In this document: in pieces, positions 40,218-62,166 of the stretch
Numbering within the stretch: position 1 is the stretch's first letter
Layout: each line of letters begins with the position of its first letter
From: a virus
Taxonomy: Duplodnaviria > Heunggongvirae > Uroviricota > Caudoviricetes
Virus record (IMG/VR): IMGVR_UViG_3300037423_000296
Span: 11,541 to 75,540 of that record
Length of the DNA: 64,000 nucleotides
Strand: one strand, 5' to 3'
Translations under genes and position numbers: made by a program
The notes under the pieces: generated by a model
Told to the model about the DNA's origin: nothing
What the model saw: only the letters and a program-made list of their open reading frames with translations
Database searches by the model: none

Positions 40218-40290
40218 AGCGTATGGCCGGGTTCGAACCGGCGACATCAACGTTGGCAACGTTGCACTCTACCTACTGAGTTACATACGC
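40218..40290 (-). tRNA. tRNA-Gly (GCC)
   Basis: manual cloverleaf; loop UUGCCAA. Confidence 0.8.
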
Positions 40291-40364
40291 AAAGGCAGGA
40301 TATGTAGGCGTCATCGGTATTTAGCAATGTGAGTGATAGGTAACCGATTAACTTCGACCCTGCG

Positions 40365-40441
40365 TGGGGTGACTGACGGGGTTCGAACCCGCGTACTCTG
40401 CTTCACAGGCAGATATCTGAGACCGCTCGATTACAGCCACC
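40365..40441 (-). tRNA. tRNA-His (GUG) with G-1 and encoded CCA
   Basis: manual cloverleaf; loop CUGUGAA; 8-bp acceptor incl G-1:C73. Confidence 0.8.
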
Positions 40442-40457
40442 ATAGCGCTTACGCGCA

Positions 40458-40652
40458 TTAATCCAATGGGATTATTGTTACTTCGAATCCCTGAGCATTC
40501 AGCTTCTTCCAAGCTTCCTGTCCATGGTGATTGCAAAATACTAGCATCAATGTGCCCTTTTCTGCAACCATATACCCTCGTGCGCCGCACTTGTCACATC
40601 GTTGTGACACAGGATTGTGTTCCTGCAACTTCTCTACAACATTCATTGACAT
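40458..40652 (-). CDS. small zinc-ribbon protein
   Basis: CDKCGARG..CNHHG. Confidence 0.4.
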   Translation of the reverse strand: MSMNVVEKLQEHNPVSQRCDKCGARGYMVAEKGTLMLVFCNHHGQEAWKKLNAQGFEVTIIPLD

Positions 40653-40682
40653 AGCGCCTCCTATAGAATCGGGGGTACCGAG

Positions 40683-40753
40683 AGCGGATGACCAGAATCG
40701 AACTGGCTTCTCTAGCTTGGAAGGCTAGGGCACAACCAATATACCACATCCGC
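40683..40753 (-). tRNA. tRNA-Gly (UCC)
   Basis: manual cloverleaf; loop CUUCCAA. Confidence 0.75.
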
Positions 40754-40777
40754 AATGACATTCTTTCGAATGTCTCG

Positions 40778-40848
40778 CACTCCTACGGAGAATTGAACTC
40801 CGACTAACAACTTGAGAGGCTGTCGTACTACCCTTATACGATAGGAGC
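40778..40848 (-). tRNA. tRNA-Glu (CUC)
   Basis: manual cloverleaf; loop CUCUCAA. Confidence 0.65.
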
Positions 40849-40936
40849 AAAATCGGGTTTTTAGGAGCCCGTCTCCTGCCAGGTGTTTCACTGGCTGCCC
40901 TGATGTTTCTATTCTATCAGAGCGTTTGCACCACTG

Positions 40937-41239
40937 TCAAGCCGATGTCTCAGGGGTTGTTTGTGTTGGGGCTTTTGAGGTATCTCCCTGACCCATCTTA
41001 TACTTGATGAACTCGTCCATTAGAGCGTAGTACTTCACACGCCACTTGTCAAGCTCTTCTTCTGTCTTGGCAAGCTCTAGACGAAGTTCTTTAATGTCTG
41101 ACCGCAACTCGTTACGAAAGTCTGTTGCAGTGTCATCTTTAGATTTAGACCTGTTTAGCCAGTGCTCGATGACCTTCAGTCCGGAACCCCCGAGAAGAGC
41201 ACCAATGAGTGCTAGCCAAGCCTGATTAATTTCCGGCAT
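40937..41239 (-). CDS. membrane/coiled-coil protein
   Basis: ORF track. Confidence 0.45.
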   Translation of the reverse strand: MPEINQAWLALIGALLGGSGLKVIEHWLNRSKSKDDTATDFRNELRSDIKELRLELAKTEEELDKWRVKYYALMDEFIKYKMGQGDTSKAPTQTTPETSA

Positions 41240-41663
41240 CTTGTGTATCCATCTCCCACTTTAGTCTCAAGTGGCAAACAGCCGAGATGAGTGCCAGACC
41301 AAATGTCTGCAACCAGGATAGTCTCTGGGTTCCAAAGAGAATAACCCCGGAAAAACCATAAAAGGTCAGCAACAGAAAGGACGTGAACGTTACAATTCTG
41401 CGAACCTGCTGCCTCCTAGGCCACTTCTTACGGAGCAGAGCATACAGCATCGGTCCAGCCATCAAGATTTGCACAGTACCAAACAATATTGACAGAGTAA
41501 TTCCATCAATAATTTTCAGCTGTGAAGCCGCCCCAGGATTCGGTGTGTACCACGGTGTCATAAACCAAATCCCCGTCAAGAACAGAATGAAGGCGATGAT
41601 AGACTCGATTGCTTCCATCGGTCGCTTCGCAATGGACTTGAAAAAGGTAATTGGCTCAATCAT
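41226..41663 (-). CDS. integral membrane protein (about 4 TM)
   Basis: ORF track; hydrophobic segments. Confidence 0.5.
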   Translation of the reverse strand: MIEPITFFKSIAKRPMEAIESIIAFILFLTGIWFMTPWYTPNPGAASQLKIIDGITLSILFGTVQILMAGPMLYALLRKKWPRRQQVRRIVTFTSFLLLTFYGFSGVILFGTQRLSWLQTFGLALISAVCHLRLKWEMDTQDAGN

Positions 41664-41716
41664 GGTCTAATTATAGCCCGGAACGGATTAGGTGCCAAAA
41701 AGGTAACTCTCAGTAA

Positions 41717-41962
41717 CTAGCCCAGCAATTCTTTTGCAGTGATTTCTGGACCACAATACCGGCGATGCTTGATGTATTCACGAAAAGTCTCATCGCCGCC
41801 AATACGACCGGCCAAGATGATAAAGCTTCGTGGTTCCATCTTACTGTTAATGCAGGTCTGACACAGAAGAATCTTAGTCTTCTTCCAAAGCTTTGATTCC
41901 TTGGCATGAAGCTCAGCCTTCTGCTTGCCACAACTCTGGCACTCCATTAATTCCCCTCCCAT
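41717..41962 (-). CDS. zinc-ribbon protein
   Basis: CQSCGK..CQTC. Confidence 0.45.
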   Translation of the reverse strand: MGGELMECQSCGKQKAELHAKESKLWKKTKILLCQTCINSKMEPRSFIILAGRIGGDETFREYIKHRRYCGPEITAKELLG

Positions 41963-42870: not shown

Positions 42871-42944
42871 TGGAGCCCAATACCTGAGTCGAACAGGCAC
42901 ATCCTCATTACGAAAGAGGCGCACTGCCATTATGCTAATCGGGC
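42871..42944 (-). tRNA. tRNA-Thr (CGU), CCA encoded
   Basis: manual cloverleaf; loop UUCGUAA. Confidence 0.7.
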
Positions 42945-43056: not shown

Positions 43057-43131
43057 TGGAGCCCACTGTGGGAATTGAACCCACGACCTTCTCCTTACCA
43101 AGGAGACATTCTACCACTGAACCAAGCGGGC
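43057..43131 (-). tRNA. tRNA-Thr (GGU), CCA encoded
   Basis: manual cloverleaf; loop UUGGUAA. Confidence 0.8.
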
Positions 43132-43399
43132 AAATTACATAACAAAGCAATAATAGCCGGGGTTCTGTTATTTCATGCAAGCATCTGTCTCGGGTTCTTT
43201 TACGAACCCGGCGATTTCGTTGCCTCCATCGCTGCCCTCTACCCGACATCCTATGGGAATGAAACCGGATGTCTGCTTGAGGTTGCTCCCATCCTACACC
43301 CTGCTTTTTCGGTTGGGCTTAGTGGACGCACCACACGGCTTTCATTCTGGGAGCCCCGAACTTGTCCTCTGCGTTAACCGCAGCGCTCGCATCATGCTT

Positions 43400-43450
43400 T
43401 GTTAAAACTATTTTAGCAAAAGAGAGGGGACTTTGGCAAGTCCCCTCTCT
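43400..43450 (-). terminator. intrinsic terminator (agagaggggac/gtcccctctct stem, U-run)
   Basis: read in sequence downstream of 43456..43758. Confidence 0.65.
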
Positions 43451-43795: not shown

Positions 43796-44566
43796 CTAGG
43801 TACCCAATCCATTCCATTCTACCTTGAATTCGTTCCTAAAGAGAAATTCTTGTGTTTCAAGGTCAAGAATTCCCCAACTATCCCATGTTCCATCCATATC
43901 TAGACCAATTGTTTTGGTGTAATGATTGTCTGCAACAAGGTTCTCCCAGACATAGCGGGTGTGCATATGTCCGTGAAAATGCATCTCTGGCCTAACCCGG
44001 CTCAAAATCGCATCGATACGCTGCCGGTTAGCCAGACTGTCCATGTCAGGCTTGAGTCGGCCCTTCCATGGAGTCCTGTTAGAACAGTCGTGAGTGACTA
44101 AGTAGTCAATCTTACCGGTCTTGATGGAGTCAACCATCTCGTCGGTGACTTCCTCATTCCGCCACCAAGTCTGGCCCTCAACTCTCCACTGCTTATCGAC
44201 CGAGACAGCCCCAGCAACCATGAGAAACTTCTTGCCTTCCCACCCCCAATAATGGACACGTGGAGCTAGCAAGATGTGAGACCGCAGATATGCAAAGCCA
44301 TGGTAGGACTTCGGCATATTCTTTACGAACCAATCCCAGTGGTCCCAATTCTCATGGTTACCGCCGACAGCGTAAATCTTTACGCCCTCTCTTCGGGCAA
44401 CCTCGTTCAATTGGTCTAGAAAACGAATGCCATCCTCGTAGTGACTCCAGAGTCCGAAATCGCCTGTCTGGATAATCTTCTTGACCCCGGCTTTTGACGC
44501 CTCCTTCACCATGTTAATGGCGTGCTTGGTGTTGCCGTGCCAGTCGCCTGCTACGAGTACCTTCAT
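43796..44566 (-). CDS. calcineurin-like metallophosphoesterase (Ser/Thr phosphatase-like)
   Basis: GDWHG, GDFG, GNHE motifs. Confidence 0.8.
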   Translation of the reverse strand: MKVLVAGDWHGNTKHAINMVKEASKAGVKKIIQTGDFGLWSHYEDGIRFLDQLNEVARREGVKIYAVGGNHENWDHWDWFVKNMPKSYHGFAYLRSHILLAPRVHYWGWEGKKFLMVAGAVSVDKQWRVEGQTWWRNEEVTDEMVDSIKTGKIDYLVTHDCSNRTPWKGRLKPDMDSLANRQRIDAILSRVRPEMHFHGHMHTRYVWENLVADNHYTKTIGLDMDGTWDSWGILDLETQEFLFRNEFKVEWNGLGT

Positions 44567-44575
44567 TTCGCCTCC

Positions 44576-44851
44576 TTAAACCCAGTCGTTTTCGTTGATG
44601 CCTTCCTTGCCATGTTTGCACAAGTCTACATGACGACCACACCTTGAGCAAATGGCTTCCTGAGATGCGTAGTAGTGCTTAGGGGGAGCGCTAGGCGACT
44701 CCCCCATTACACTCTCAGCCTTATCAGGCTCAGTAGTCGTCATCTTCGTCGTCGTCTTCATCGTACTCTGGACACTCGTAGTACTCGTGGTCATCGTCAC
44801 CGCAATTCTCACAGTACAAAGTGTCGAAGTCGTTCTCGTCCAACTCGCCAA
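44576..44851 (-). CDS. hypothetical Cys-containing protein (true start probably internal)
   Basis: ORF track. Confidence 0.35.
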   Translation of the reverse strand: MASWTRTTSTLCTVRIAVTMTTSTTSVQSTMKTTTKMTTTEPDKAESVMGESPSAPPKHYYASQEAICSRCGRHVDLCKHGKEGINENDWV

Positions 44852-45680
44852 CTACATTGGCATAATCGGACTTGAGCAGAGGAGCGCTGACCTCTTCATC
44901 GGCAACGTCAATTACGACGTAGCGACAAACGCGAATCTTCGCCTCGTTGTGCTCAGTCGGCACAGAGACAACATCGCGAGGGTTGATAGCAACCTTCACA
45001 CGACCATTTCCGTAACCACGGGCATAGTCGAACGTTCCGGCATGCAGACCAGTCGAGCATCCCTCGGCAGGGTTGAATTCAACCTCGCTACGCGGCATCT
45101 CAACCGTGTCACCAATGCGCTGGGGAATCTGCTGGTTCTCGAACAACTCGCCATTGACGATTGCCGTACCAGAGTGCCACGACTTGTAGACCTTGCCGTT
45201 CTCATCCTCCTCAACGTAGAGACCCTTGTAGGCAACAAGGTCACCGTCAGAGGTAATCGTGATTGACGGACGAGCCTTGACCCAGCCGTAAAGCTGCTCA
45301 CGGCTGTGAGGCTCAGGGTTGAGAGACACCTTGTCTAGGAAGTTGACCAAAGGCATGAAGTCTTCGTCAGCCTCAAGCATTCGCAGAATGTGGTCAGTGA
45401 TGGCGTTGTCAACGTGGTCACCGTCGAAGTATACCTTGCCATTGGCAACGGAGATTCGGTCGGTCAGACGCTCAAAACGCTTTGCCACCTCTTCAGCCGG
45501 GTCAAAGAGTCGGACGACAGACTCATCACCGGAAGTAATCCCGGCAACAATCTGGTCCCAATTCTTGTGGTCCTGGTTTGCAACGTACATCTCACCGTCA
45601 ATAAAAGCGGTGACGCTGGACTCATTTCCAACGCTTACGAGATTATACTTGATTGTTCTTCTCCTTCTGGTAAATTGCAT
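44730..45680 (-). CDS. rIIB: rIIB-like protein (by size and position immediately downstream of rIIA-like)
   Basis: 316 aa, overlaps rIIA-like end; acidic C-terminus; no motif-level confirmation. Confidence 0.5.
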   Translation of the reverse strand: MQFTRRRRTIKYNLVSVGNESSVTAFIDGEMYVANQDHKNWDQIVAGITSGDESVVRLFDPAEEVAKRFERLTDRISVANGKVYFDGDHVDNAITDHILRMLEADEDFMPLVNFLDKVSLNPEPHSREQLYGWVKARPSITITSDGDLVAYKGLYVEEDENGKVYKSWHSGTAIVNGELFENQQIPQRIGDTVEMPRSEVEFNPAEGCSTGLHAGTFDYARGYGNGRVKVAINPRDVVSVPTEHNEAKIRVCRYVVIDVADEEVSAPLLKSDYANVVGELDENDFDTLYCENCGDDDHEYYECPEYDEDDDEDDDY

Positions 45681-47559
45681 TCATGTATAGGTAGACATGC
45701 TCTTTATTGCTACCACAGTTACCCCTGGCAAGCGGGTACTTATTGAATGGGTCGGTAATATCTTCCGACTTAATCTCTCCGTGAGCGTACTCGATTGCCC
45801 TGGCAAATTCACACGCCGCGTACCAATCCTTCATGGTGTCGGTGAGCGGTTCCTGCTTCGCATTGCATGCATTGATGAATGCGACCATCTCAGGGTCGTC
45901 AATGCGAGTGGGGTCAAGCTTCTGAGCGTTGACTCTGGAGTAGTAATCTACGTCAGTCATTCTACGCCTATCGGTCTTGGTAAGTCCAGCCTTCGCGAAC
46001 ATTACCTTGTCCTTAATCCACTGCTCCAAATCCTCAGAGTCAGGGTTGGCTTTCTTGAACCTATCAAGCTCATTCTTGTACAGAATGACGATTTCGTAAT
46101 CCTTGAGAATAGTGGTGAGGTTCTTCCACTTAATCTTCCGGCGACCCGGCACAATGTACATGACATTCTTGGTGTCATCCAAATCAGCCTTGGTTGTCGT
46201 GTATCCGTGCGCAGTCAGGGTGTTGTACTCAACAACCTTCTTGTCAGACTTGGCACGAACTAGCTTGATAGCCTTGATAGTCTCAAAGGGCACCGTCCGA
46301 ATTTCGGCCAGACGCTTCGTGTCAGGGTGCTTCTCCATCAAGAATACCTTGTACGGACGCTCGCCTGCCGGAAGATTCTCAATGTAGTGACGAATCTTCT
46401 GTCGGTAGTTCGTAGGAAGCTTCTCACCAGTAAACCCAGTGATGGTCAGATATTGAGAGAAATTCTTCCAGTCGATGTGCCTCGGGAAGGTTACTGCATG
46501 ACGCTCATGGCTGTGAGCGAAAGACATCGCTTCCGGCGCTTCACCGTAATTGAATTCCCACGTCTGCTTCAGTTCCTCACCCTTGTAGGTGTAATTGTGA
46601 GAAATCATGAATGAACGCTTGTCATGAGTCTTGAGAGCTTCAAGGTAGGTGGGCTGGGCATCAATCTCGGCCTGGATTTGGTTGGCAATTCCTGCCTTAG
46701 CCTCTGCCGACAGCTTGGAGATTGTCTCCTTGGTCTTGTCGGTGTACATCAATTCCTCGCGGTTCGGAGGAAATGCCACATCACCAATCTCGACAAAGGC
46801 TACCAAGTGATAATCGCCGTAGTGTTCGGCAAGACCGTCAGCCTTGTAGGGAACATTTCCCATAACTACGTACGATGTACCCTGACCGGGAAGAGCGACA
46901 ATGTTGTCAGTGACCCACAAAGCATCCTTGTGGTCTCCGATGAATTCCGGCTGCTTGTCGTCAACAAGAACAGTACCCGGAGTCCAGTACTTGAAGAAAT
47001 GCTCCACCCTTGCAGTGAAGTCACTAGTGTACTTGACGGGAATGATGATTTCCACACCAGACGGCTCATCGGTAATCGACGTGTCAACAATCTCCATTAC
47101 GCCAGAGCCGTACTCATCCTTGCTCACCATTACAAGAATCTTCACACCTTGGTGAATGGATACAATCTGGAATTGAGCCGTGTAAGTCAAGCCAGACTTA
47201 CTTCCAAGACCCAGCATTCCAACCTGAGAATCAGTATCTCTCTTGGTTGAATTCCAGTATTGAGAGTAGACGTTCTCAATGAAATCTACAGACATTCCAT
47301 TGCCAAAATCCCGAATTTTGAAGAACGGGCTAAGCGCGCTGGGACTGTGAATCTCGATTGGAACATTTGCCTTGCCAGCGTCAATATGAGCATCACGAGC
47401 ATTCGTGCTGTATTCTCGAATGATTGCCTTGATTGGGTCTGCGTACATATCTGTCAAGGTGCTCATGGCGAATTGTAGACTGTGCATATCCATCGTCATC
47501 TCAATACGCTTACCGCCGAGATTGCCGCTGGTTTGAATGTCTAGTGGTGCTGGACGCAT
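45643..47559 (-). CDS. rIIA: rIIA-like protein with N-terminal GHKL (HATPase_c) ATPase domain
   Basis: N box REYSTNARDA, G1 box IRDFGNGMS, G2 box GMLGLGSKSG. Confidence 0.75.
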   Translation of the reverse strand: MRPAPLDIQTSGNLGGKRIEMTMDMHSLQFAMSTLTDMYADPIKAIIREYSTNARDAHIDAGKANVPIEIHSPSALSPFFKIRDFGNGMSVDFIENVYSQYWNSTKRDTDSQVGMLGLGSKSGLTYTAQFQIVSIHQGVKILVMVSKDEYGSGVMEIVDTSITDEPSGVEIIIPVKYTSDFTARVEHFFKYWTPGTVLVDDKQPEFIGDHKDALWVTDNIVALPGQGTSYVVMGNVPYKADGLAEHYGDYHLVAFVEIGDVAFPPNREELMYTDKTKETISKLSAEAKAGIANQIQAEIDAQPTYLEALKTHDKRSFMISHNYTYKGEELKQTWEFNYGEAPEAMSFAHSHERHAVTFPRHIDWKNFSQYLTITGFTGEKLPTNYRQKIRHYIENLPAGERPYKVFLMEKHPDTKRLAEIRTVPFETIKAIKLVRAKSDKKVVEYNTLTAHGYTTTKADLDDTKNVMYIVPGRRKIKWKNLTTILKDYEIVILYKNELDRFKKANPDSEDLEQWIKDKVMFAKAGLTKTDRRRMTDVDYYSRVNAQKLDPTRIDDPEMVAFINACNAKQEPLTDTMKDWYAACEFARAIEYAHGEIKSEDITDPFNKYPLARGNCGSNKEHVYLYMNAIYQKEKNNQV

Positions 47560-48342: not shown

Positions 48343-48423
48343 ACGTGGACGCGGCGGTGGAGGAGGTGGTGGTGCAGGTAGTTGTGACGGGTCATCATGT
48401 GGTTCCCATGGATTTCTCATAAG

Positions 48424-48506
48424 TAGCGACTGTGGGAGTCGAACCCACACCCCATTTCTGAGACTGCATTTTGAGTGCAGCGCGGCTGCCGTTACGCCAA
48501 GTCGCC
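48424..48506 (-). tRNA. tRNA-Leu (CAA), long variable arm
   Basis: manual cloverleaf; loop CUCAAAA. Confidence 0.75.
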
Positions 48507-48588
48507 AAATTCCTAGAAATCGGTCCCATTACTATTCTAGGCGGATTTCGGTTGCCACTAATGGGTTGAGCGAACCTACTTTCGTCTG

Positions 48589-48660
48589 TGGATGGTGAGG
48601 GAATCGAACCCCCGACGACTTGCGTGTCGAGCAAGCATTCTACCGCTGAATTAACCATCC
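48589..48660 (-). tRNA. tRNA with anticodon GAC (Val?) and non-canonical C33
   Basis: manual cloverleaf; loop UCGACAC; acceptor and T-arm perfect. Confidence 0.5.
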
Positions 48661-48814: not shown

Positions 48815-48886
48815 CATCTCGGGGTGCTCCCAGGGAATTTCGAAATCCCGGCCTTCTGTGTGTAAGACAGACGCTCTTCCTCTGAG
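48815..48886 (-). tRNA. tRNA-Val (UAC)
   Basis: manual cloverleaf; loop CUUACAC. Confidence 0.7.
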
Positions 48887-52681: not shown

Positions 52682-52704
52682 TACTAATCTTTCGGTCAAT
52701 GAAG

Positions 52705-54697: not shown

Positions 54698-54712
54698 CTC
54701 TTCCTCTCTAAT

Positions 54713-54790
54713 TGTGGAGTCGCGGGGAATTGAACCCCGGTCCTTTGCATTCAATCGTACATCCGAATTACAGCCATCCCTATTCTTTAG
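54713..54790 (-). ncRNA. tRNA-like fragment (perfect T-arm CGGGG-UUCAAUU-CCCCG; no acceptor partner found)
   Basis: manual reading. Confidence 0.3.
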
Positions 54791-55108
54791 ACCTTTACGA
54801 TTGAAGGTGGTCCCAGGATAAGTCCGTCTACCTCTGGCCTTTTAAACTGATGCCGAGCAGTAGGGGGGGTGAACAGTTTGTAGGCGAAGCCACTGTTCGA
54901 TTTCCACCACTGACCTTTCTGTTCCTAGGCAGTCAGCGCCCGATGCTCAATCCTCAGACTGAAGCAAGGTCGTACTCAGCGCAAAGCGCCTCGTACTCTG
55001 CATCAATGTTGTCAGTTGCAGTTATTGTTTGTCAAGTGTTTAACGACTCTCTCAACGAAGTCGGGCTGCGTTCATACTCTCTAGTTCAAAGTCGATACCT
55101 TTCGACCC

Positions 55109-55423
55109 CTAAGGCAAATATACTTTTGCCAAGTTATTGTCTACAAGTAGTTTATTGAGACTTTCAGTACCGGCGAAAACCTCTGCCAGCCAGCGACCGT
55201 ACTTCTCTTTCTTGTAGGTATTGATTGTAACTGTTGGATTCTTTGCAAAGAAGGACTTTACGAAGGCTGTTGCCTCTGCCCATCCTACCTGACCACGCTC
55301 TGGCGTGTCAATTCCATACAATCTGAAAACCGTATCAACTCTAATATCAAATCCCAGGTCTACTGTTAGTTCTACAGTATCACCATCTACCGCTCTAACA
55401 AAGTCTGCCTTGTATTGGTACAT
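55109..55423 (-). CDS. thermonuclease (staphylococcal nuclease-like, SNase domain)
   Basis: VRAVDGDTVEL..RLYGIDTPE..KYGRWLA motifs. Confidence 0.8.
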   Translation of the reverse strand: MYQYKADFVRAVDGDTVELTVDLGFDIRVDTVFRLYGIDTPERGQVGWAEATAFVKSFFAKNPTVTINTYKKEKYGRWLAEVFAGTESLNKLLVDNNLAKVYLP

Positions 55424-55517: not shown

Positions 55518-55588
55518 ATTCGCCAAGCCGTTGCAACCAGCAGGAATCGAACCCCGACTTGACTGAGCGTATTTCGAACTACGCTTTG
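55518..55588 (-). pseudogene. degenerate tRNA-like spacer with two T-arm-like hairpins (GCGUA-GUUCGAAA-UACGC; GGGGUUCGAUUCC)
   Basis: manual reading. Confidence 0.25.
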
Positions 55589-55659
55589 CTCTCCCACCTG
55601 GACTCGAACCAAGAAGACTTCGTTAACAGCGAAGCATGTTGCCATTACATCATAGGAGA
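55589..55659 (-). tRNA. tRNA-Asn (GUU), second copy with different backbone
   Basis: manual cloverleaf; loop CUGUUAA. Confidence 0.7.
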
Positions 55660-55698: not shown

Positions 55699-55771
55699 GA
55701 GGTGCGTACCGGATTCGAACCGGTGTTTACAGCTTTGCAGGCTGCCGCCTAACCAGACTCGGCCAACACAC
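55699..55771 (-). tRNA. tRNA-Cys (GCA)
   Basis: manual cloverleaf; loop CUGCAAA. Confidence 0.8.
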
Positions 55772-55849
55772 CATAATGCAATCTTCTACTTTACCCATTA
55801 AGGGAGGCACTGCGCACCATTTGCTAAAGTAAAGTGACTGCAACTTGCG

Positions 55850-55921
55850 TGCCCCCAGAGAGATTCGAACTCCCGACTTACTGGTTCGAAGCCAGTTACT
55901 CTTCCGCTGAGTTATGAAGGC
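55850..55921 (-). tRNA. tRNA-Arg (UCG)
   Basis: manual cloverleaf; loop CUUCGAA. Confidence 0.75.
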
Positions 55922-56035
55922 ATTGGTGGGCGCGTGCTCAAGAAATCATCCTCAGCATCTTCCGTATAGCCGTTTCTCGGGATATTGTACAATTACCTCC
56001 GACGTACTACACGACATGTCTTTCGACGCGCCCAG

Positions 56036-56107
56036 TGGACCATACAGGATTTGAACCTGCGACTTCTTCCATGCCATGGAAGCACTCTACCGCTGAGTTA
56101 ATGGCCC
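56036..56107 (-). tRNA. tRNA-Ala (GGC) with G3-U70
   Basis: manual cloverleaf; loop AUGGCAU; G3:U70 identity pair. Confidence 0.8.
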
Positions 56108-56424: not shown

Positions 56425-56805
56425 CTACGTGCGCGCTGATGGAGTCGAACCACCCGAGCCCGAAGACAACTGTTTTACAGACAGTCCCGCTACCTCTACG
56501 GAATAAGCACGCATTGCAAGTTGGTTTCTAATCAACTTGCTCTTGTAGTAGCTTACTCGACGCCTTCTCAGTCTGTCAAGCTTATCCGGCAGAGTTTCTG
56601 TAGTTTCATCTTGAACTACTTCTGTTCTTGCCGCTTGCCAGCTTGAGAATGACCCCAAGAACAAGGCTACCATGGATACTACACTTACGAAAACCACACT
56701 CTCAAGCCAGCCAATGTAGTAACTCAAGATAGTGAATGGCAACCAGAATAGTGTACACCATCCGTGGAATGCTCTCAAAACCCGTGGATTTTCGTAAAAT
56801 TTCAT
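56425..56805 (-). CDS. membrane protein (2 TM); 3' part of ORF overlaps tRNA-Tyr so true end uncertain
   Basis: ORF track; overlap with 56430..56512 tRNA. Confidence 0.35.
   Translation of the reverse strand: MKFYENPRVLRAFHGWCTLFWLPFTILSYYIGWLESVVFVSVVSMVALFLGSFSSWQAARTEVVQDETTETLPDKLDRLRRRRVSYYKSKLIRNQLAMRAYSVEVAGLSVKQLSSGSGGSTPSART
56430..56512 (-). tRNA. tRNA-Tyr (GUA), long variable arm
   Basis: manual cloverleaf; loop CUGUAAA. Confidence 0.8.
56560..56590 (-). promoter_or_regulatory. promoter TTGACA-N18-TAAGCT upstream of tRNA-Tyr
   Basis: consensus match. Confidence 0.45.
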
Positions 56806-56906: not shown

Positions 56907-56908
56907 AG

Positions 56909-56981
56909 TAGCTGAGGTCAGAATCGAACTGACTATATAGTTCCTTATGAGAGAACTCGGATACCTTATCTCGTCCCAGCC
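56909..56981 (-). tRNA. second tRNA with anticodon CAU (Met or Ile2), atypical D-arm
   Basis: manual cloverleaf; loop CUCAUAA; acceptor GGCUGGG/CUCAGCU. Confidence 0.5.
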
Positions 56982-58277: not shown

Positions 58278-58352
58278 GTATTTCTCCTTATTTGTGATTG
58301 ACCTCACGGGTCTCTCACAAGCATAACATTAAGGTTACGATGAAGCAAGATG

Positions 58353-58425
58353 TACCCCTGACAGGATTCGAACCTGCATACGCGCTGGGTAGAAACCAGC
58401 CGTTCATCCTTTGAACTACAGAGGC
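58353..58425 (-). tRNA. tRNA-Arg (UCU)
   Basis: manual cloverleaf; loop UUUCUAC. Confidence 0.7.
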
Positions 58426-59113: not shown

Positions 59114-59192
59114 GTTAAGTATCCCTCCTTAGGTTACCTATACATGGCCGTCAACCTTTCGCATTACAAACCTCCTTTGAATAGAAGTTACG

Positions 59193-59266
59193 TAGGCCCC
59201 GTGGGATTCGAACCCACACTCTGACAGGGTAAAAGCCTGCGGTTTTGCCAATTAAACTAGAGACCC
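59193..59266 (-). tRNA. tRNA-Lys (UUU)
   Basis: manual cloverleaf; loop CUUUUAC. Confidence 0.8.
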
Positions 59267-59450
59267 AAAAACCTCAAGACCGCTAATCTTGAGGCTGTAA
59301 GCAATCACAGTACCTAGGATTGATTGCCCTTTGTGAGTTTTGGCTTCTCACTGCGCCACGGTTTTCTCTAACATTCAGAACCGCTCTGAACGGCTGCGCT
59401 CTGGTGTACAGCCACCATCTGTATTTTGCATCGCGTAATGCTCAACATTG

Positions 59451-59526
59451 TACTCCGGACGGGAATCGAACCCGCACCCTCTGGGGTGAAAACCCAGCGA
59501 ACCTGACCAATAGATTCTACCGGAGC
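59451..59526 (-). tRNA. tRNA-Glu (UUC)
   Basis: manual cloverleaf; loop UUUUCAC. Confidence 0.75.
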
Positions 59527-59636
59527 ATAAGCGGTAGTCCGCTAGCCAGTCGGTCTTTATACACAATAGCCCTATCCGACGACCTTGCTATTGCGTGGCC
59601 CGTTTATCTCGTGCCAAAACGGTTTCCATAAAAGCG

Positions 59637-59709
59637 TACCCCCAGACGGACTCGAACCGCCGACCCGATGATTAAGAGTCATCTGCTCTACCAACTGAGC
59701 TATAGAGGC
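59637..59709 (-). tRNA. tRNA-Lys (CUU)
   Basis: manual cloverleaf; loop CUCUUAA. Confidence 0.8.
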
Positions 59710-59725: not shown

Positions 59726-59798
59726 TGGGTCGCCGGGGAATTGAACCCCGTCCCGAAGGGTAAGAGCCTTCTGTTGCTAACCGTTACACCCGCGACCC
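59726..59798 (-). tRNA. tRNA-Lys (CUU), second copy, different backbone
   Basis: manual cloverleaf; loop CUCUUAC. Confidence 0.65.
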
Positions 59799-60047
59799 AG
59801 AACCGGGCTGACTTCTTAACCCGGCCATCTTACTTTACAACTGTGGAAGAAGCAATAGGCAAAATACCAGACCCAATGCGAATCCAATTACTACTGCTAG
59901 CCAAAGGGGCATCATTTACCCCCTCACAGGATTAGTGATAGTAGCCATACGATTAGCAATACTACCACAACCACCATAAGAATGTAACCAATACTCATAT
60001 TACACACCTCCACTATCATGTTACCCAAGTTAGTGGAGGTTGAAACG

Positions 60048-60118
60048 TGGACCGTGTGGGAATCGAACCCCTCTTCTTCCTTGCAAGGGAAGTTTGCAAC
60101 CATTACAACTCACAGCCC
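60048..60118 (-). tRNA. tRNA-Ala (UGC) with G3-U70, imperfect T-stem
   Basis: manual cloverleaf; loop CUUGCAA. Confidence 0.55.
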
Positions 60119-60183
60119 AAAACCCGAACCACGAGGGAGCGGGTGGTTAATAACTCAAGTTTACCAGAACCCGCGCATTCTTG

Positions 60184-60390
60184 TCAACTAACAATGTGGA
60201 CGACGAACCATGCGAAGAAGATTCCAGATACAACCAACCATACCGTGCGTCCAAGGTGAGTGTCAACCCTGAACCACTTACGAAGATGCTCTGAGAGCGT
60301 GTCTTCGTCTACGTCATTGGAGATTGCTACAGCCTCAATAATAGCGAAGCTGACAATCCATAATACCCACAAGACATTCCAGATGTTCAT
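60184..60390 (-). CDS. small membrane protein
   Basis: ORF track; two hydrophobic segments. Confidence 0.45.
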   Translation of the reverse strand: MNIWNVLWVLWIVSFAIIEAVAISNDVDEDTLSEHLRKWFRVDTHLGRTVWLVVSGIFFAWFVVHIVS

Positions 60391-60629
60391 TCTTCTCCCA
60401 GGGATAGCTTATGTTCTACACTGATTAGGTCTAGACACTTCTGGCATACTGGGATAACGATTGGACCAAATTCTGTTGATGCAGTAATTTCACCAACCGC
60501 TGGATTTCCGTCAGTGAACAGTACCTCTGGGTTTTCAGAGTCAGTCCAAGTAATCCCGCACATCTGCTGAATCTGGATGTTATTACCCATTGCTTCGATG
60601 CTACTTTTGATTTGGCTTAGGTCGTTCAC
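60387..60629 (-). CDS. hypothetical protein
   Basis: ORF track. Confidence 0.45.
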   Translation of the reverse strand: MNDLSQIKSSIEAMGNNIQIQQMCGITWTDSENPEVLFTDGNPAVGEITASTEFGPIVIPVCQKCLDLISVEHKLSLGEE

Positions 60630-60780
60630 TGTCTACCTTGAAACTGTTGATGTCTACTCCGCACGTAGAGCCCTCGCCAAATGCGTCATGGACAGCATCA
60701 ATGGCATCGGCAAGGTCGAATGCTTCGACCTCAACCTCTAGGCTTACGTGCAACACATATCTTTCCATGCCTCTATTGTA

Positions 60781-60975
60781 CTACGAATTCTTTCCTCGTA
60801 GCCACCAGTCGGCCAAATCTACAGAGCAGTTTCCGCAGATTTCTCCTCTATCATCCACTGCCAGAACCGGCCCATTCTCATTGAACTGAGACTCAAGCCT
60901 TAGACTGACAATGCCAAGCGCCTTAAACTGAGAGACTACCTTGTTACAGTTCGGCCTTGCGCAAATTGTTGCCAT
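60781..60975 (-). CDS. zinc-ribbon protein (start at MATICARPNC)
   Basis: CARPNC..CGNC. Confidence 0.4.
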   Translation of the reverse strand: MATICARPNCNKVVSQFKALGIVSLRLESQFNENGPVLAVDDRGEICGNCSVDLADWWLRGKNS

Positions 60976-61516
60976 CAAGCACCTCCTTAAGATAGTTGTA
61001 TCTAACAATGTTAAACTTAGCATCTTCAAGAGCGTTGTGCAAGCCTTCCGGCTGCTTAGGCATGTCACAGTACTTAGCTAGTTTGTGTAGCTGCTTGATA
61101 TCGTAGGTCACCATCGGTACCTCGGGTGGAAGGTCAACCATCTTGCCAAAGAGTTGGGCTAGGCATACATGGTCATAGGCACTGTACCATGCCCATAGTT
61201 CTGCTGGCTGTCCTTGGCCGACAAATTCCAAGACCCCGCGCTTAATCTCCTCGCGGCTCATGGCTGCCGGGTCTGTGATGTCGAAGTCTCGATAGACAGG
61301 AAATCCTTCGGCATCGACAACAGCGTACGACTCATGGTCAATAGAAGACATAACATTCTCCATGAGCCACCAATGAGTTGCTACCCTGGAAGTGTCGAAT
61401 TCATTAGACACAGCGTAGAAAGTCTCATCTGTCTCGTAGTTCACGATTCCGATACTGATAAGGTCGATAATCTTTCCATCTTCATGGAATTCACAGTCAT
61501 AGAAAAACTTACTCAT
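60944..61516 (-). CDS. DEDDh-family 3'-5' exonuclease (DnaQ/RNase T-like)
   Basis: Exo I YDCEFHEDG, Exo II AWYSAYD, Exo III HNALEDAKFN motifs. Confidence 0.8.
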   Translation of the reverse strand: MSKFFYDCEFHEDGKIIDLISIGIVNYETDETFYAVSNEFDTSRVATHWWLMENVMSSIDHESYAVVDAEGFPVYRDFDITDPAAMSREEIKRGVLEFVGQGQPAELWAWYSAYDHVCLAQLFGKMVDLPPEVPMVTYDIKQLHKLAKYCDMPKQPEGLHNALEDAKFNIVRYNYLKEVLDGNNLRKAEL

Positions 61517-61691
61517 TACTCACAATCCAAAATAGTATTCAATTCGATGCCCTCCAGAACAAAAGTATAGCGTCTCCTGAGGAACTTCACCGGCTGCCGC
61601 GACGACTCCATTTGTAATGAATGCCAGCTTGAAAGTCCTGATACCAACCAGTCTGTCATCACAAGTAGCTCCGCACCACGCACACTCTTTC

Positions 61692-61958
61692 TCAGACATT
61701 GAAAGTCAGTGTTTCCTTTAGTGTAGTTGTGTCGATATCCCAATCAACAACCCCGGCTGTCACTGCGTTGAGAATCGCTAGGTCAGCTTGGTTGCGATGA
61801 GCCCAGTAGATTTCTGGGCAAAGTTCTAGTGCCTGCTTGATATTCAGCACGTACAGTGGCTCTCCGTTATCATCTGGTCCCACATAGTCATACACACCCA
61901 TAGTAACCAGTGCATCGAAATCTGTAACTGCGTCCATATTGTGAGACCTCCATATCAT
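61692..61958 (-). CDS. hypothetical protein
   Basis: ORF track. Confidence 0.5.
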   Translation of the reverse strand: MIWRSHNMDAVTDFDALVTMGVYDYVGPDDNGEPLYVLNIKQALELCPEIYWAHRNQADLAILNAVTAGVVDWDIDTTTLKETLTFNV

Positions 61959-61992
61959 AGAGAAAGGCCACTACCGAAGTAGTGGCCTCTTG

Positions 61993-62065
61993 CGCGCTAG
62001 AGAGGATTCGAACCTCCGACCGCTTGATTCGTAGTCAAGTACTCTATCCGCTGAGCTACTAGCGC
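61993..62065 (-). tRNA. tRNA-Arg (ACG)
   Basis: manual cloverleaf; loop CUACGAA. Confidence 0.85.
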
Positions 62066-62093
62066 ATGCTTTATACTAGCCCTTATGGGGCAG

Positions 62094-62166
62094 TGGGAAC
62101 TTAGGGAATCGAACCCTACTCTCTCGGGCTTCAACCGAGCGCATCTACCACTTCTACTTAGTCCCC
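62094..62166 (-). tRNA. tRNA-Phe (GAA)
   Basis: manual cloverleaf; loop UUGAAGC; D-arm imperfect. Confidence 0.7.

What the first reader, a model, noticed from the sequence alone, without database searches (positions are those of the whole stretch)
40218..62166. Large tRNA array of at least 32 genes co-encoded with a CCA-adding enzyme; many tRNAs lack encoded CCA
Manual folding gave 32 tRNAs covering Gly x2, His, Glu x2, Thr x3, Leu x3, Val x2, Gln, Ser x2, Asn x2, Arg x4, Cys, Ala x2, Tyr, CAU x2, Lys x3 and Phe. All are on the minus strand. Only some encode CCA. The cca gene at 24657..25400 would mature the rest. Such a repertoire implies substantial independence from, or mismatch with, host codon usage. 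It is typical of very large virulent phages.
Basis: partly seen in the sequence, partly recalled or inferred. Interest (0 to 1): 0.55.

Follow-up and report, generated by a model that had tools for sequence, protein, structure and literature searches.

The report
Phage tRNA array with mini-RNase-P RNA
The 32 tRNA genes and the CCA-adding enzyme are real and ordinary for a large phage of actinobacteria, but the array also holds a tmRNA and an unannotated, strongly conserved miniature RNase P RNA, the ribozyme that trims tRNA 5' ends, which I found described for no phage.

Summary
ARAGORN and Rfam recover all 32 tRNAs at 40217-62166, all on the minus strand. They include the third Lys at 59726-59798, which ARAGORN misses. 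A tRNA-Asp lies at 18170. Only 7 tRNAs encode CCA, but all 33 encode C74, so at most "CA" may need adding. The gene at 24657-25400 is a short, head-and-neck-only class II tRNA nucleotidyltransferase.

- a tmRNA at 54712-55109;
- two tandem YrlA-type tRNA-like modules at 53001-53144, with a Ro60 gene at the window edge;
- a 265-nt RNase P RNA homologue at 43138-43402.

The RNase P RNA homologue sits just downstream of a promoter-like site and 6 nt upstream of tRNA-Thr. It keeps CR-I, CR-V, P1-P6, P15-P18 and the GGU motif in L15. Its specificity domain is cut to about 60 nt.

Homologues of 215-265 nt lie inside the tRNA arrays of four Microbacterium jumbo phages and eight metagenomic contigs. 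Covariation is strong: 30 of 56 pairs are compensatory, against 3-6 in controls.

The array itself is a known kind, as in Streptomyces BE-cluster phages. The phage-borne mini RNase P RNA appears undescribed. Catalysis is untested.

The parts
40217..40290 (-). tRNA-Gly(GCC), 3' end U73-C74-GU
   Evidence: ARAGORN; Rfam 69.1 bits; tail
40365..40440 (-). tRNA-His(GUG), CCA encoded, G-1 present
40682..40753 (-). tRNA-Gly(UCC)
40777..40848 (-). tRNA-Glu(CUC)
42871..42944 (-). tRNA-Thr(CGU), CCA encoded
43057..43131 (-). tRNA-Thr(GGU), CCA encoded; begins 6 nt after the RNase P RNA-like element
43138..43402 (-). Miniature RNase P RNA homologue. Type-A catalytic domain with P1-P6, P15-P17 and a P18-like hairpin; CR-I, CR-V, J5/15 GCAA and L15 CGGGUA are kept. 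The specificity domain is reduced to about 60 nt.
   Evidence: Rfam RF00010: 50.7 bits, E 4e-13, model 1-367. Own model R1 built from Microbacterium-phage elements hits it at 66.7 bits, E 4e-17. All helices pair perfectly. Covariation.
43410..43439 (-). Promoter-like site TTGCCA-N18-TG-n-TAAAAT. It would place transcription start at about 43403, the first base of P1. It overlaps a 12-bp hairpin followed by UUUU that ends the upstream ORF.
   Evidence: sequence; same TTGACA-N18 class upstream of other tRNA groups
48423..48506 (-). tRNA-Leu(CAA)
48588..48660 (-). tRNA-Val(GAC)
48823..48896 (-). tRNA-Val(UAC), encodes CC then C
48973..49046 (-). tRNA-Gln(UUG), CCA encoded
49115..49198 (-). tRNA-Leu(UAG)
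52704..52789 (-). tRNA-Ser(GCU)
52912..52995 (-). tRNA-Ser(GGA)
53001..53144 (-). Two tandem circularly permuted tRNA-like modules: closing helix, T arm, acceptor-like hairpin, D arm, closing helix. They resemble the tRNA-like domain of YrlA (bacterial Y RNA).
   Evidence: Rfam YrlA 33.8 and 29.8 bits, below the gathering score of 69; tRNA 34.6 bits at 53037-53102. Sequence reading and fold. The internal repeat is also present in relative L010.
53147..53229 (-). tRNA-Leu(GAG)
53311..53388 (-). tRNA-Thr(UGU), CCA encoded
53481..53556 (-). tRNA-Asn(GUU), CCA encoded
54712..55109 (-). tmRNA, tag ATDNIDAEYEALCAEYDLASV*
   Evidence: ARAGORN; Rfam RF00023 96 bits (gathering 47); tag nearly identical to that of Streptomyces phage BillNye
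55445..55517 (-). tRNA-Arg(CCU)
55588..55659 (-). tRNA-Asn(GUU), second copy
55699..55772 (-). tRNA-Cys(GCA)
55849..55921 (-). tRNA-Arg(UCG)
56035..56107 (-). tRNA-Ala(GGC)
56429..56512 (-). tRNA-Tyr(GUA), long variable arm
   Evidence: ARAGORN; Rfam only as tRNA-Sec-like, 32.7 bits
56835..56906 (-). tRNA(CAU), CCA encoded, U1-C72 mismatch; identity (Met, fMet or Ile2) unresolved
56908..56981 (-). tRNA(CAU), atypical D arm; ARAGORN only
   Evidence: no Rfam hit; same adjacent Met-Met pair in BillNye
58352..58425 (-). tRNA-Arg(UCU)
59192..59266 (-). tRNA-Lys(UUU)
59450..59526 (-). tRNA-Glu(UUC)
59636..59709 (-). tRNA-Lys(CUU)
59726..59798 (-). tRNA-Lys(CUU), second copy, weak D arm; missed by ARAGORN
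   Evidence: Rfam 43 bits; fold and sequence
60047..60118 (-). tRNA-Ala(UGC)
61992..62065 (-). tRNA-Arg(ACG)
62093..62166 (-). tRNA-Phe(GAA)
24657..25400 (-). Short (247 aa) class II tRNA nucleotidyltransferase with head and neck only; motifs GGCVRD..DID, RRDFTMNA and EDPLRALRAIRF
   Evidence: Pfam PF01743; PHROG; aligns to residues about 1-250 of 390-420 aa CCA-adding enzymes; NCBIfam hits all below full-length cut-offs; more than 2200 homologues, the 120 best listed being 242-304 aa
60944..61516 (-). Homologue of RNase AS (Rv2179c-like, polyadenylate-specific 3' exoribonuclease)
   Evidence: Pfam PF16473 E 1e-12; NCBIfam RNase_AS E 4e-43
63439..64000 (-). C-terminal part of a Ro60 (Rsr) orthologue (vWA_Ro60 domain); the reading frame is open to the window edge
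   Evidence: Pfam PF25045 E 8e-45; frame check
43796..47559 (-). rIIA-rIIB-metallophosphoesterase block that marks the syntenic position of the RNase P RNA in relatives

Best explanation
The region is the RNA-maturation and translation island of an actinobacteriophage. The phage is distantly related to the Streptomyces BE-cluster phages (Stanwilliamsviridae).

Several TTGACA-N18-TAnnnT promoter-like sites precede short groups of tRNA genes. Together the groups hold 33 tRNAs that read about 87% of the codons of this roughly 50% GC phage. Those codons are presumably poorly served in a high-GC host. The same island carries a tmRNA for ribosome rescue.

The island also brings tools to mature these RNAs.
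1. A miniature RNase P RNA, transcribed from its own promoter-like site together with tRNA-Thr(GGU) and tRNA-Thr(CGU). It keeps the complete catalytic core (P1-P5, P15-P17, CR-I and CR-V forming P4, the bulged U, J5/15 GCAA, L15 GGU) and has only a stub of the specificity domain. I infer that it assembles with the host RnpA protein and cleaves the 5' leaders of the flood of phage pre-tRNAs. Its GGU motif could pair with N73-C74, which every phage tRNA gene encodes.
2. A short CCA-adding enzyme. After 3' cleavage that probably leaves C74, it would complete or repair the CCA end.
3. An RNase AS-like 3' exonuclease, and a Ro60 protein with Y-RNA-like modules, for RNA trimming or quality control.

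Shown: the genes, their conservation, and the RNA fold supported by covariation. Inferred: catalytic activity, the protein partner, the C74 pairing and the order of processing.
For: tRNAs, tmRNA and cca.

Relatedness and shared architecture with BillNye (dispersed tRNAs, a tmRNA with a near-identical tag, rIIA-rIIB-phosphoesterase).

RNase P RNA identity:
- RF00010 matches the whole model at E 4e-13 in the window. It matches at E 1e-20, 4e-14, 5e-21 and 1e-15 in A3Wally, Zooman, an IMG/VR contig and the window's close relative.
- CR-I and CR-V are 15/15 identical to the consensus in A3Wally.
- Model R1, built only from Microbacterium-phage copies, finds the window copy at E 4e-17. It also finds further copies in L013-L015 and L017-L019.

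Structure:
- Alignment A4 (10 sequences): 98.8% of cells paired and 30 of 56 pairs with compensatory change, against 3-6 in slid controls. This includes pseudoknots P4 and P6, which were not in the model.
- Independent MAFFT alignment of the window lineage: 97.8% paired and 21 of 56 compensatory, against 0-4.

Context:
- The element is always inside a tRNA array on the tRNA strand.
- In the Microbacterium phages it starts right after C74 of tRNA-Arg(CCG) and ends 5 nt before tRNA-Arg(CCU).
- In the window lineage it is syntenic upstream of tRNA-Thr.
- The promoter-like site ends 8 nt before P1.

C74 is universal in the actinophage arrays examined and is not in a cyanophage. S. coelicolor cuts between the two Cs. 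Codon usage.
Against: - No activity, expression or end-mapping data exist.
- The element scores below Rfam's gathering threshold (50.7 against 100) because about 110 model positions of the S-domain are missing.
- In E. coli, deletion of P18 or the S-domain lowers rates by orders of magnitude. A mini form may therefore be a poor general enzyme.
- No rnpA gene was found in the window, so a protein partner is assumed.
- The nearest cultured relatives of the window's backbone lack the element in the stretch searched: BillNye, 42 kb of tRNA and tmRNA region. It is therefore not required for running such an array.
- Universal C74 is also seen in BillNye, so it is a host-lineage trait, not something specific to phages with the mini RNA.
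- The host is inferred, not known.
Confidence: 0.7

Rival explanations
1. This is an ordinary codon-compensation tRNA array. The RNase P-like element is a decaying fragment of a captured host rnpB gene with no function of its own.
For: The element lacks most of the S-domain and scores below Rfam's gathering threshold. Related phages such as BillNye run similar arrays without it in the region searched. tRNA arrays also contain degenerate tRNA-like pieces (53037-53102).
Against: Three diverged lineages keep it, with nearly every helix substitution compensated. The catalytic-core motifs are invariant. The pseudoknots P4 and P6 covary. The position is precise: its ends coincide with tRNA processing sites or with a promoter-like site. 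A pseudogene would not show 98% pairing across sequences that differ at 30-40% of positions.
Confidence: 0.07
2. The mini RNase P RNA is functional but is not a general tRNA 5'-processing enzyme. It could be a decoy that titrates host RnpA, shutting down host tRNA and RNA maturation. It could be a specialised or cis-acting ribozyme that frees only neighbouring tRNAs. Or it could be an enzyme with altered substrate choice because T-loop recognition is lost.
For: The S-domain, which measures the tRNA elbow, is reduced to about 60 nt. S-domain-less catalytic domains bind pre-tRNA weakly but still cleave other substrates such as pre-4.5S RNA. The element is always physically joined to particular tRNAs: Arg(CCG)/Arg(CCU), or Thr(GGU)/Thr(CGU).
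Against: A decoy would not need an intact active site, yet the bulged U in P4, the CR-V ACAGAA, J5/15 GCAA and L15 GGU are all conserved. Titrating RnpA would also hurt the phage's own 30-70 tRNAs. The remaining S-domain stub (hairpin plus invariant CUAAGC) is the most conserved part, which suggests it still contacts substrate.
Confidence: 0.18
3. The array's main role is counter-defence rather than codon supply. Phage tRNAs, the tmRNA, the CCA-adding or repair enzyme, RNase AS and Ro60 with Y RNA would replace or repair host tRNAs that are cut, or have their 3' ends damaged, by host anticodon nucleases, by MenT-type nucleotidyltransferase toxins or by other abortive-infection systems.
For: RNA repair and quality-control genes co-occur with the array in the window. 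RNA ligase, RtcB and ADP-ribosyltransferase lie next to the arrays in the Microbacterium phages and BillNye. CCA repair would counter toxins that target the 3' end. The repertoire is redundant (Asn x2, Lys(CUU) x2, CAU x2), beyond what codon need explains.
Against: The window holds no RNA ligase or polynucleotide kinase, and no defence system is known for the unknown host. The large GC3 gap between phage (0.57) and a presumed high-GC host is sufficient to explain selection for A/U-ending codon readers. The two roles are not mutually exclusive.
Confidence: 0.3

Closest known systems
tRNA and tmRNA islands of Streptomyces BE-cluster phages (e.g. BillNye, Stanwilliamsviridae) and of Microbacterium and Arthrobacter jumbo phages
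   Same: Dozens of same-strand tRNA genes are interspersed with small ORFs. There is a tmRNA with an almost identical tag (ADNIDAEYEALCAEY...). The rIIA-rIIB-metallophosphoesterase block, WhiB and about 50% GC are shared. Most tRNAs lack CCA but all carry C74.
   Different: Protein identity is only about 36% (rIIA) and there is no DNA-level similarity. BillNye's 42-kb island has no RNase P RNA-like element. The window lacks the RNA ligase and polynucleotide kinase annotated in BillNye's island (none annotated or detected in the window), but it has a short CCA-adding enzyme closest to those of the Microbacterium phages (48%).
Bacterial type A RNase P RNA (Rfam RF00010, e.g. E. coli M1 RNA)
   Same: P1-P5, P15-P17 (and P18 in the window lineage) are present. 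CR-I and CR-V form P4 with the bulged U. J5/15 GCAA (A248 equivalent) and L15 GGU, which pairs with N73-C74-C75, are kept.
   Different: The length is 215-265 nt instead of about 350-400. P7-P14 are replaced by about 60 nt: a 3-bp helix, one hairpin and an invariant CUAAGC. P6 is lengthened to 7-8 bp. The Microbacterium form also lacks P18 and has a 4-bp P3. The element is encoded by a phage, sits inside a tRNA operon, and scores below the gathering threshold.
Naturally minimised RNase P RNAs: Pyrobaculum type T and reduced organellar or Mycoplasma forms (own knowledge: Lai et al. 2010 PNAS; not checked with the tools)
   Same: The catalytic domain is retained with the specificity domain largely lost. 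The size is about 200-270 nt. The natural forms are still active with their protein partners.
   Different: Those are the sole cellular enzymes of archaea, organelles or reduced bacteria. Here the mini form is an extra copy carried by a virus whose host presumably has a full-size enzyme, and it derives from the bacterial type A lineage.
Ro60 (Rsr) with YrlA Y RNAs of bacteria and mycobacteriophages (Chen et al. 2014, PMC4201824)
   Same: A Ro60 orthologue is encoded by the phage. The RNA modules have a T arm, an acceptor-like hairpin closed by a loop, and a D arm, in the permuted order typical of the YrlA tRNA-like domain.
   Different: There are two tandem modules lying about 10 kb from Ro60 rather than adjacent to it. 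No Ro-binding stem was recognised. Rfam scores (about 30-34 bits) are far below the gathering score of 69.
Class II CCA-adding enzymes (e.g. Planococcus or Geobacillus enzymes, PDB 6ibp and 1miv)
   Same: The head and neck domains and the catalytic motifs A, B and D are present.
   Different: The protein has 247 aa against about 390-420 aa. The body and tail domains that hold the tRNA are missing. It belongs to a large family (more than 2200 hits at E up to 1e-20, the listed ones 242-304 aa) from metagenomes; its relatives in sequenced phages are annotated as tRNA nucleotidyltransferases. Whether it adds CCA, CA or only A is unknown.

Membership tests
tRNA (RF00005 / ARAGORN) | Cloverleaf scoring at or above Rfam's gathering score (29 bits), or accepted by ARAGORN, with a 7-bp acceptor stem | tested here: met
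   31 of the 33 reach at least 29 bits in Rfam. 32 of 33 are called by ARAGORN, with 6-7 of 7 acceptor pairs. Tyr and CAU-56908 rest on ARAGORN only.
tRNA (RF00005 / ARAGORN) | Encoded 3' CCA | tested here: not met
   Only 7 of 33 encode CCA, but all 33 encode C74. This is not a membership requirement for tRNA genes.
tmRNA (RF00023) | Score above gathering, a tRNA-like domain and a tag reading frame | tested here: met
   96 bits against 47, over the full model. ARAGORN gives the tag ATDNIDAEYEALCAEYDLASV*. BillNye's tag is homologous.
Class II tRNA nucleotidyltransferase (CCA-adding enzyme) | PolyA_pol head domain with catalytic motifs A (GGxVRD...DxD), B (RRD) and D (EDxxR) | tested here: met
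   PF01743: 68.5 bits against a cut-off of 23. The motifs are seen in the alignment to 6ibp.
Class II tRNA nucleotidyltransferase (CCA-adding enzyme) | Body and tail domains; full-length equivalog score | tested here: not met
   The protein ends after the neck (247 aa). All NCBIfam equivalogs are far below their cut-offs, for example 135.9 against 290.
Class II tRNA nucleotidyltransferase (CCA-adding enzyme) | Adds C, C and A to tRNA 3' ends | not testable with these tools
   This needs an enzyme assay on tRNA-N73, tRNA-NC and tRNA-NCC substrates.
Bacterial RNase P RNA type A (RF00010) | Score at or above the gathering threshold (100 bits) | tested here: not met
   50.7 bits in the window; 53-72 bits in relatives. 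E-values of 1e-13 to 1e-21 are nevertheless highly significant.
Bacterial RNase P RNA type A (RF00010) | Catalytic core: CR-I and CR-V forming P4 with a bulged U; P1-P5; P15 with the L15 GGU; J5/15 GCAA | tested here: met
   Alignments. All helices pair 100% in the window copy. P4 and the other helices covary.
Bacterial RNase P RNA type A (RF00010) | Specificity domain P7-P14 with the T-loop binding site (CR-II and CR-III) | tested here: not met
   About 110 model positions are replaced by 16-23 nt in the Rfam alignment. Only a hairpin and a conserved CUAAGC remain. Homology of the stub to P12 and J12/13 is conjecture.
Bacterial RNase P RNA type A (RF00010) | Cleaves pre-tRNA 5' leaders | not testable with these tools
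The precedent for active S-domain-less catalytic domains is cited from PMC11143913.
YrlA (RF02553) with Ro60 | Score at or above gathering (69 bits), a Ro-binding stem, and adjacency to Ro60 | tested here: inconclusive
   Scores are 33.8 and 29.8 bits, covering only the tRNA-like part. The permuted T-arm, acceptor-hairpin, D-arm order is seen by inspection. Ro60 is present but 10 kb away. No Ro-binding stem was identified.

The most novel reading that the evidence does not exclude
Some actinobacteriophages carry their own RNase P ribozyme. It is a 215-265 nt bacterial-type RNA stripped of most of its specificity domain. It is released from tRNA operons by the same cuts that mature the flanking tRNAs, or transcribed from its own promoter. 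It makes 5' maturation of the phage's 30-70 tRNAs independent of, or faster than, the host enzyme. If so, it would be the first virus-encoded RNase P known to me, and among the smallest natural bacterial-type RNase P RNAs. It would also come with culturable phage-host pairs (A3Wally or Zooman on Microbacterium foliorum) in which to test it.
Probability: 0.55. Interest if true: 0.8.

Novelty: new variant of a known kind. Interest (0 to 1): 0.62.

Why it matters
The tRNA array with a CCA enzyme is a textbook feature of large actinophages and teaches little by itself. The embedded mini RNase P RNA matters for three reasons.
1. RNase P has been regarded as a strictly cellular or organellar enzyme. 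A phage copy would extend the list of translation-related functions that viruses carry to RNA catalysis.
2. It is a natural, covariation-supported experiment in how little of the specificity domain a bacterial RNase P RNA needs. That question has been studied for decades with engineered deletions.
3. It is unannotated in four GenBank phage genomes that can be grown in the laboratory, so the idea is directly testable.

The universal C74 in the actinophage tRNA genes examined also gives a simple, testable prediction. The 3' processing would leave C74, and the short nucleotidyltransferase would only need to add CA.

Tried and rejected
1. Megablast of the whole array against phage genomes found only short tRNA and tmRNA matches. 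There is no close sequenced relative.
2. Exact-pattern scans for the conserved hairpin motif found 2 loci in IMG/VR, 3 in metagenomes and none in 185,579 bacterial or archaeal genomes. The motif is therefore not an obvious piece of a host rnpB gene or of prophages.
3. Blastn with three lineages of the element against 50,697 phage records found only the four Microbacterium phages.
4. I looked for an RNase P protein. There was no PF00825 hit among 138 window ORFs, nine of them scanned singly and 129 in concatenated Pfam scans. The first concatenation's GS linkers produced spurious Serglycin hits, which I ignored. Tblastn with E. coli C5 against the phage collection found only bacterial contamination and no actinophage.
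5. I considered that C74 might be selected by the phage ribozyme's GGU motif. I rejected this as a specific link, because BillNye, which lacks the element in the region searched, also has C74 in 28 of 28 tRNAs.
6. I considered that 'GAAUGAAAG' is a CR-II remnant. I rejected this because the stretch covaries with the L17 loop as P6.
7. An alternative P7 pairing (GCCG/CGGU) was disfavoured by a non-compensated change in one phage.
8. The MFE folds of the isolated elements were not informative because of the pseudoknots.
9. Nine literature searches, six of them aimed at RNase P RNA genes in phages or viruses, found no report of a phage-encoded RNase P RNA. The library lacks most subscription journals, so absence is not proof.

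Full report
**1. Checking the observation**

ARAGORN finds 33 RNA genes in the window. Thirty-one are tRNAs between 40217 and 62166, all on the minus strand. The others are a tRNA-Asp at 18170-18241 and a tmRNA at 54714-55109.

Rfam at gathering thresholds confirms 29 of the 31 and the tmRNA (96 bits against 47). It adds a weak tRNA-like hit at 53037-53102. In E-value mode Rfam adds a tRNA at 59726-59798 (43 bits). By inspection this one has a perfect 7-bp acceptor stem, the anticodon loop CU-CUU-AC, A73 and C74.

Two members rest on ARAGORN alone: Tyr, which has a long variable arm, and the second CAU tRNA, which has an odd D arm. The same Met-Met pair and a Tyr occur in Streptomyces phage BillNye.

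**2. CCA status**

I read the 3' end of every tRNA from the acceptor pairing. Full CCA is encoded in 7 tRNAs: His, the three Thr, Gln, Asn-53481 and CAU-56835. Val(UAC) has CC. All 33 genes have C at position 74.

The same holds for every tRNA called in the related loci:

| Locus | tRNAs with C74 |
|---|---|
| A3Wally | 16 of 16 |
| Zooman | 15 of 15 |
| Big4 | 20 of 20 |
| Fourth Microbacterium phage | 19 of 19 |
| Five environmental contigs (L003, L004, L013, L014, L015) | 49 of 49 |
| BillNye | 28 of 28 |
| Cyanophage S-CBWM1 (control) | C 15, T 17, G 2, A 2 (of 36) |

The cyanophage also has a short cca gene next to its array. The pattern is therefore not produced by the method. It goes with actinobacterial hosts.

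RNA-seq in S. coelicolor showed that CCA-encoding tRNAs are cut between the two Cs (PMC4681348). That fits 3' processing that leaves N73-C74, with only CA added afterwards. This last step is inference.

**3. The cca gene**

The ORF at 24657-25400(-) matches PF01743 and the PHROG family 'tRNA nucleotidyltransferase' (E 7e-51). It carries the GGCVRD..DID, RRDFTMNA and EDPLRALRAIRF motifs. It aligns only to the first 250 or so residues of solved CCA-adding enzymes of 390-420 aa, so the body and tail are missing.

It belongs to a very large family: more than 2200 hits at E up to 1e-20, and the 120 best listed are 242-304 aa long. The nearest sequenced relatives are in Microbacterium, Arthrobacter and Synechococcus phages.

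**4. What kind of phage this is**

- rIIA, rIIB and a metallophosphoesterase lie inside the array.
- rIIA is about 36% identical to those of Streptomyces BE-cluster phages.
- BillNye shows the same layout: dispersed tRNAs among small ORFs, a tmRNA and rIIA-rIIB-phosphoesterase.
- BillNye's tmRNA tag (ADNIDAEYEALCAEYALVTV) is nearly that of the window (ATDNIDAEYEALCAEYDLASV).
- WhiB and a weak SsgA-like hit point to an actinobacterial host.
- GC3 of the window's genes is 0.57. The phage tRNAs can read 87% of their codons. Ile, Pro, Trp, Ser-UCR and Leu-UUA are not covered within the window.

So far this is a new member of a well-known kind.

**5. The unexpected part: a miniature RNase P RNA**

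Rfam in E-value mode reports a match to bacterial RNase P RNA class A at 43138-43402(-). It scores 50.7 bits with E 4e-13, and covers the model end to end in only 265 nt.

The alignment keeps the following:
- P1, P2 and P3;
- CR-I (GAGGAcAAGUUCGGGGC) and P5;
- J5/15 GCAA;
- P15 and P16/17;
- the L15 sequence CGGGUA;
- CR-V (ACAGAACCCCGGCUAU).

About 110 model positions of the specificity domain are replaced by a few dozen bases.

Blastn of this stretch hit unannotated gaps between two tRNA genes in four Microbacterium jumbo phages. Rfam scores those gaps higher: 72 bits with E 1e-20 in A3Wally, and 53 bits in Zooman. There CR-I and CR-V are identical to the consensus.

**6. How many copies there are**

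Pattern scans, a covariance model of my own (R1) and look-ups of contigs encoding homologues of the neighbouring phosphoesterase brought the family to 13 copies in three lineages.

1. *Window lineage.* Members are the window, IMG/VR contig 3300037420_000101 (about 85% DNA identity over the shared region), and metagenome contigs L017, L018 and L019. All are syntenic: rIIA-rIIB-phosphoesterase-small ORF-element-tRNA-Thr(GGU)-tRNA-Thr(CGU). In L019 rIIA and rIIB were not seen in the stretch fetched.
2. *L014.* An intermediate form, also followed by two tRNA-Thr.
3. *Microbacterium lineage.* Four phages, one IMG/VR contig and two metagenome contigs. The element always lies between tRNA-Arg(CCG) and tRNA-Arg(CCU).

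R1 found nothing in four other places. These were BillNye's 42-kb island, two more distant phosphoesterase-bearing contigs (fetched with up to 4 kb on each side of the gene), and the first 50 kb of cyanophage S-CBWM1, which hold most of its tRNA genes.

**7. Evidence for the fold**

I wrote a structure from the Rfam mapping and added two pseudoknots by eye. P4 joins CR-I to CR-V and has a bulged U. P6 joins the stretch just 3' of P5 to the L17 loop and is 7-8 bp long.

| Alignment | Cells paired | Pairs with compensatory change | Slid-partner controls |
|---|---|---|---|
| Five Microbacterium-type copies, 94% identical | 100% | 13 | at most 1 |
| Ten sequences aligned to the model | 98.8% | 30 of 56 | 3-6 |
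| Window lineage, independent MAFFT, structure from the window copy | 97.8% | 21 of 56 | 0-4 |

In the ten-sequence set, P4 and P6 were not part of the model and they still covary. No shuffle out of 500 reached the observed values for any measure in the two larger sets. In the five-sequence set the same holds for four of the five measures.

In the window copy every helix pairs perfectly. P3 is replaced wholesale between relatives but stays a hairpin. The window lineage keeps a P18-like hairpin with a GNRA loop. The Microbacterium form lacks P18.

The remaining specificity-domain stub is a 3-bp helix, a GUGG/CCAC hairpin and an invariant CUAAGC. In L019 the hairpin carries a 100-nt insertion, as the variable P12 arm does in cellular RNase P RNAs. 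Whether the stub is a remnant of the T-loop binding site is conjecture.

**8. Anatomy in the transcript**

In the Microbacterium phages the element begins at the base after C74 of the upstream tRNA. It ends 5 nt before the downstream tRNA. The cuts that mature the two tRNAs would therefore release it.

In the window it follows a 12-bp hairpin with a U-run and a promoter-like site, TTGCCA-N18-TG-n-TAAAAT. The -10 element ends 8 nt before P1. Sites of the same class (TTGACA-N18-TAnnnT) lie just upstream of other tRNA groups. Promoter-like sites are enriched in the array: 31 against 18.8 ± 3.5 expected.

**9. Likely mechanism**

The following comes from the 2024 JBC review (PMC11143913):
- Type A and type B catalytic domains without the S-domain cleave pre-tRNA, with and without the protein, though they bind less well.
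- U69, A248 and G292-G293-U294 contact the substrate.
- The GGU triplet pairs with N73, C74 and C75.

The equivalents of all of these are conserved in the phage RNAs, and every phage tRNA gene offers N73-C74.

I therefore think the most likely function is a supplementary RNase P ribozyme. It would use the host RnpA protein and raise the capacity for 5' maturation of phage pre-tRNAs.

No rnpA gene is present among 138 window ORFs scanned. I found none in actinophages by tblastn with E. coli C5. That search mostly revealed bacterial contamination in the phage collection.

Activity, partner and benefit are all inferred. BillNye's tRNA island, the only part of that genome searched, has no such element, so it may be an optional extra.

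**10. Other RNA-related parts**

- *tRNA-like modules.* Between tRNA-Leu(GAG) and tRNA-Ser(GGA) lie two tandem modules at 53073-53144 and 53001-53068. Each has a closing helix, a T arm, an acceptor-like hairpin (the first with a GCAA loop) and a D arm. This is the permuted order of the YrlA tRNA-like domain.
- *Ro60.* A Ro60 orthologue (vWA_Ro60, E 8e-45) runs off the right edge of the window. Phage Ro60 with YrlA is known from mycobacteriophages (PMC4201824). Here the assignment stays inconclusive.
- *RNase AS.* ORF 60944-61516 is an RNase AS homologue.
- *Pistol.* A Pistol ribozyme match above gathering lies at 18533-18586.

**11. Novelty and caveats**

Nine full-text searches, six of them aimed at RNase P RNA genes in phages or viruses, found no paper describing a phage-encoded RNase P RNA. 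The library omits most subscription journals.

Full-size type A RNase P RNAs (252-288 bits) do occur in three 'phage' records, and a fourth record holds a copy cut off by the end of the contig. These are Microcystis phage MaAM05 and three unverified gut contigs. The gut contigs may be bacterial contamination. MaAM05 deserves a separate look.

The mini form is rare. There are four records among 50,697 phage genomes by blastn, and none among 185,579 prokaryotic genomes by motif.

**12. Verdict**

The array is ordinary for its phage group. The embedded mini RNase P RNA is a well-supported new variant of a known ribozyme in an unexpected carrier, and its function is still to be shown.

Noticed in passing
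window 18533-18586 (-): Pistol self-cleaving ribozyme match above Rfam's gathering score (37.9 against 34.5 bits). The conserved ACUCGUCU..GCGAGUAUAAAUA and UUAGGC..AGAGCG stretches are present. It lies about 290 nt upstream of the isolated tRNA-Asp.
   Followed up: partly
window 53001-53144 (-) and 63439-64000 (-): Two tandem circularly permuted tRNA-like modules resembling the YrlA tRNA-like domain, and a Ro60 (vWA_Ro60) gene that runs off the window edge. This is a possible phage Ro60 and Y RNA pair. No Ro-binding stem was found.
   Followed up: partly
all tRNA genes of the window; L001-L004, L009, L011-L015: Position 74 is C in every tRNA gene of the actinophage arrays examined, whether or not CCA is encoded: 33 in the window and 147 in ten related loci. 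A cyanophage control has C in only 15 of 36. This suggests 3' processing that leaves C74.
   Followed up: yes
window 60944-61516 (-): Homologue of the mycobacterial polyadenylate-specific 3' exoribonuclease RNase AS (Rv2179c), inside the tRNA array. It could remove poly(A) tails from tRNA precursors or trim 3' trailers.
   Followed up: no
window 54712-55109 (-) and L009 17348-17643: The tmRNA tag peptide is almost identical between the window and Streptomyces phage BillNye (DNIDAEYEALCAEY core), although rIIA proteins are only about 36% identical. The acidic tag, which ends in SV or TV rather than AA, seems under strong constraint.
   Followed up: partly
L007 1464-1863 (Microcystis phage MaAM05, MW495066.1 about 115284-115683): A full-size type A RNase P RNA (252 bits, above gathering) lies in an unannotated gap of a 274-kb cyanophage genome. 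Three unverified gut 'Bacteriophage sp.' contigs (L005, L006, L008) also carry full-size or end-truncated copies, which may be bacterial contamination.
   Followed up: partly
L001 (MZ150783.1, A3Wally): The GenBank tRNA names in A3Wally disagree with ARAGORN and with the sister phages. For example, 'tRNA-Pro(ccg)' is tRNA-Arg with anticodon CCG. The anticodon seems to have been read as a codon throughout the record.
   Followed up: no
L019 about 4590-4690: One relative carries an insertion of about 100 nt, AT-rich, in the loop of the conserved GUGG/CCAC hairpin of the mini RNase P RNA. The arm therefore tolerates expansion, as P12 does in cellular RNase P RNAs.
   Followed up: no
window 42400-62300 (-): Promoter-like sites with an unusual fixed 18-nt spacer (TTGACA-N18-TAnnnT, often with TG) sit directly upstream of tRNA groups: 62213, 60187, 57022, 53670 and 43439. 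There are 31 sites against 18.8 expected.
   Followed up: partly
'phages' collection: Several records labelled as phages contain plain bacterial genes, such as E. coli-type rnpA at 99% identity in 'Campylobacter phage A11a' and Salmonella contigs. Hits in this collection are therefore not proof of phage origin.
   Followed up: no
window 56835-56906 (-): One CAU tRNA has a U1-C72 mismatch and an encoded CCA, both reminiscent of initiator tRNAs. It lacks the three G-C pairs in the anticodon stem. Its identity (initiator, elongator or Ile2) is open.
   Followed up: no
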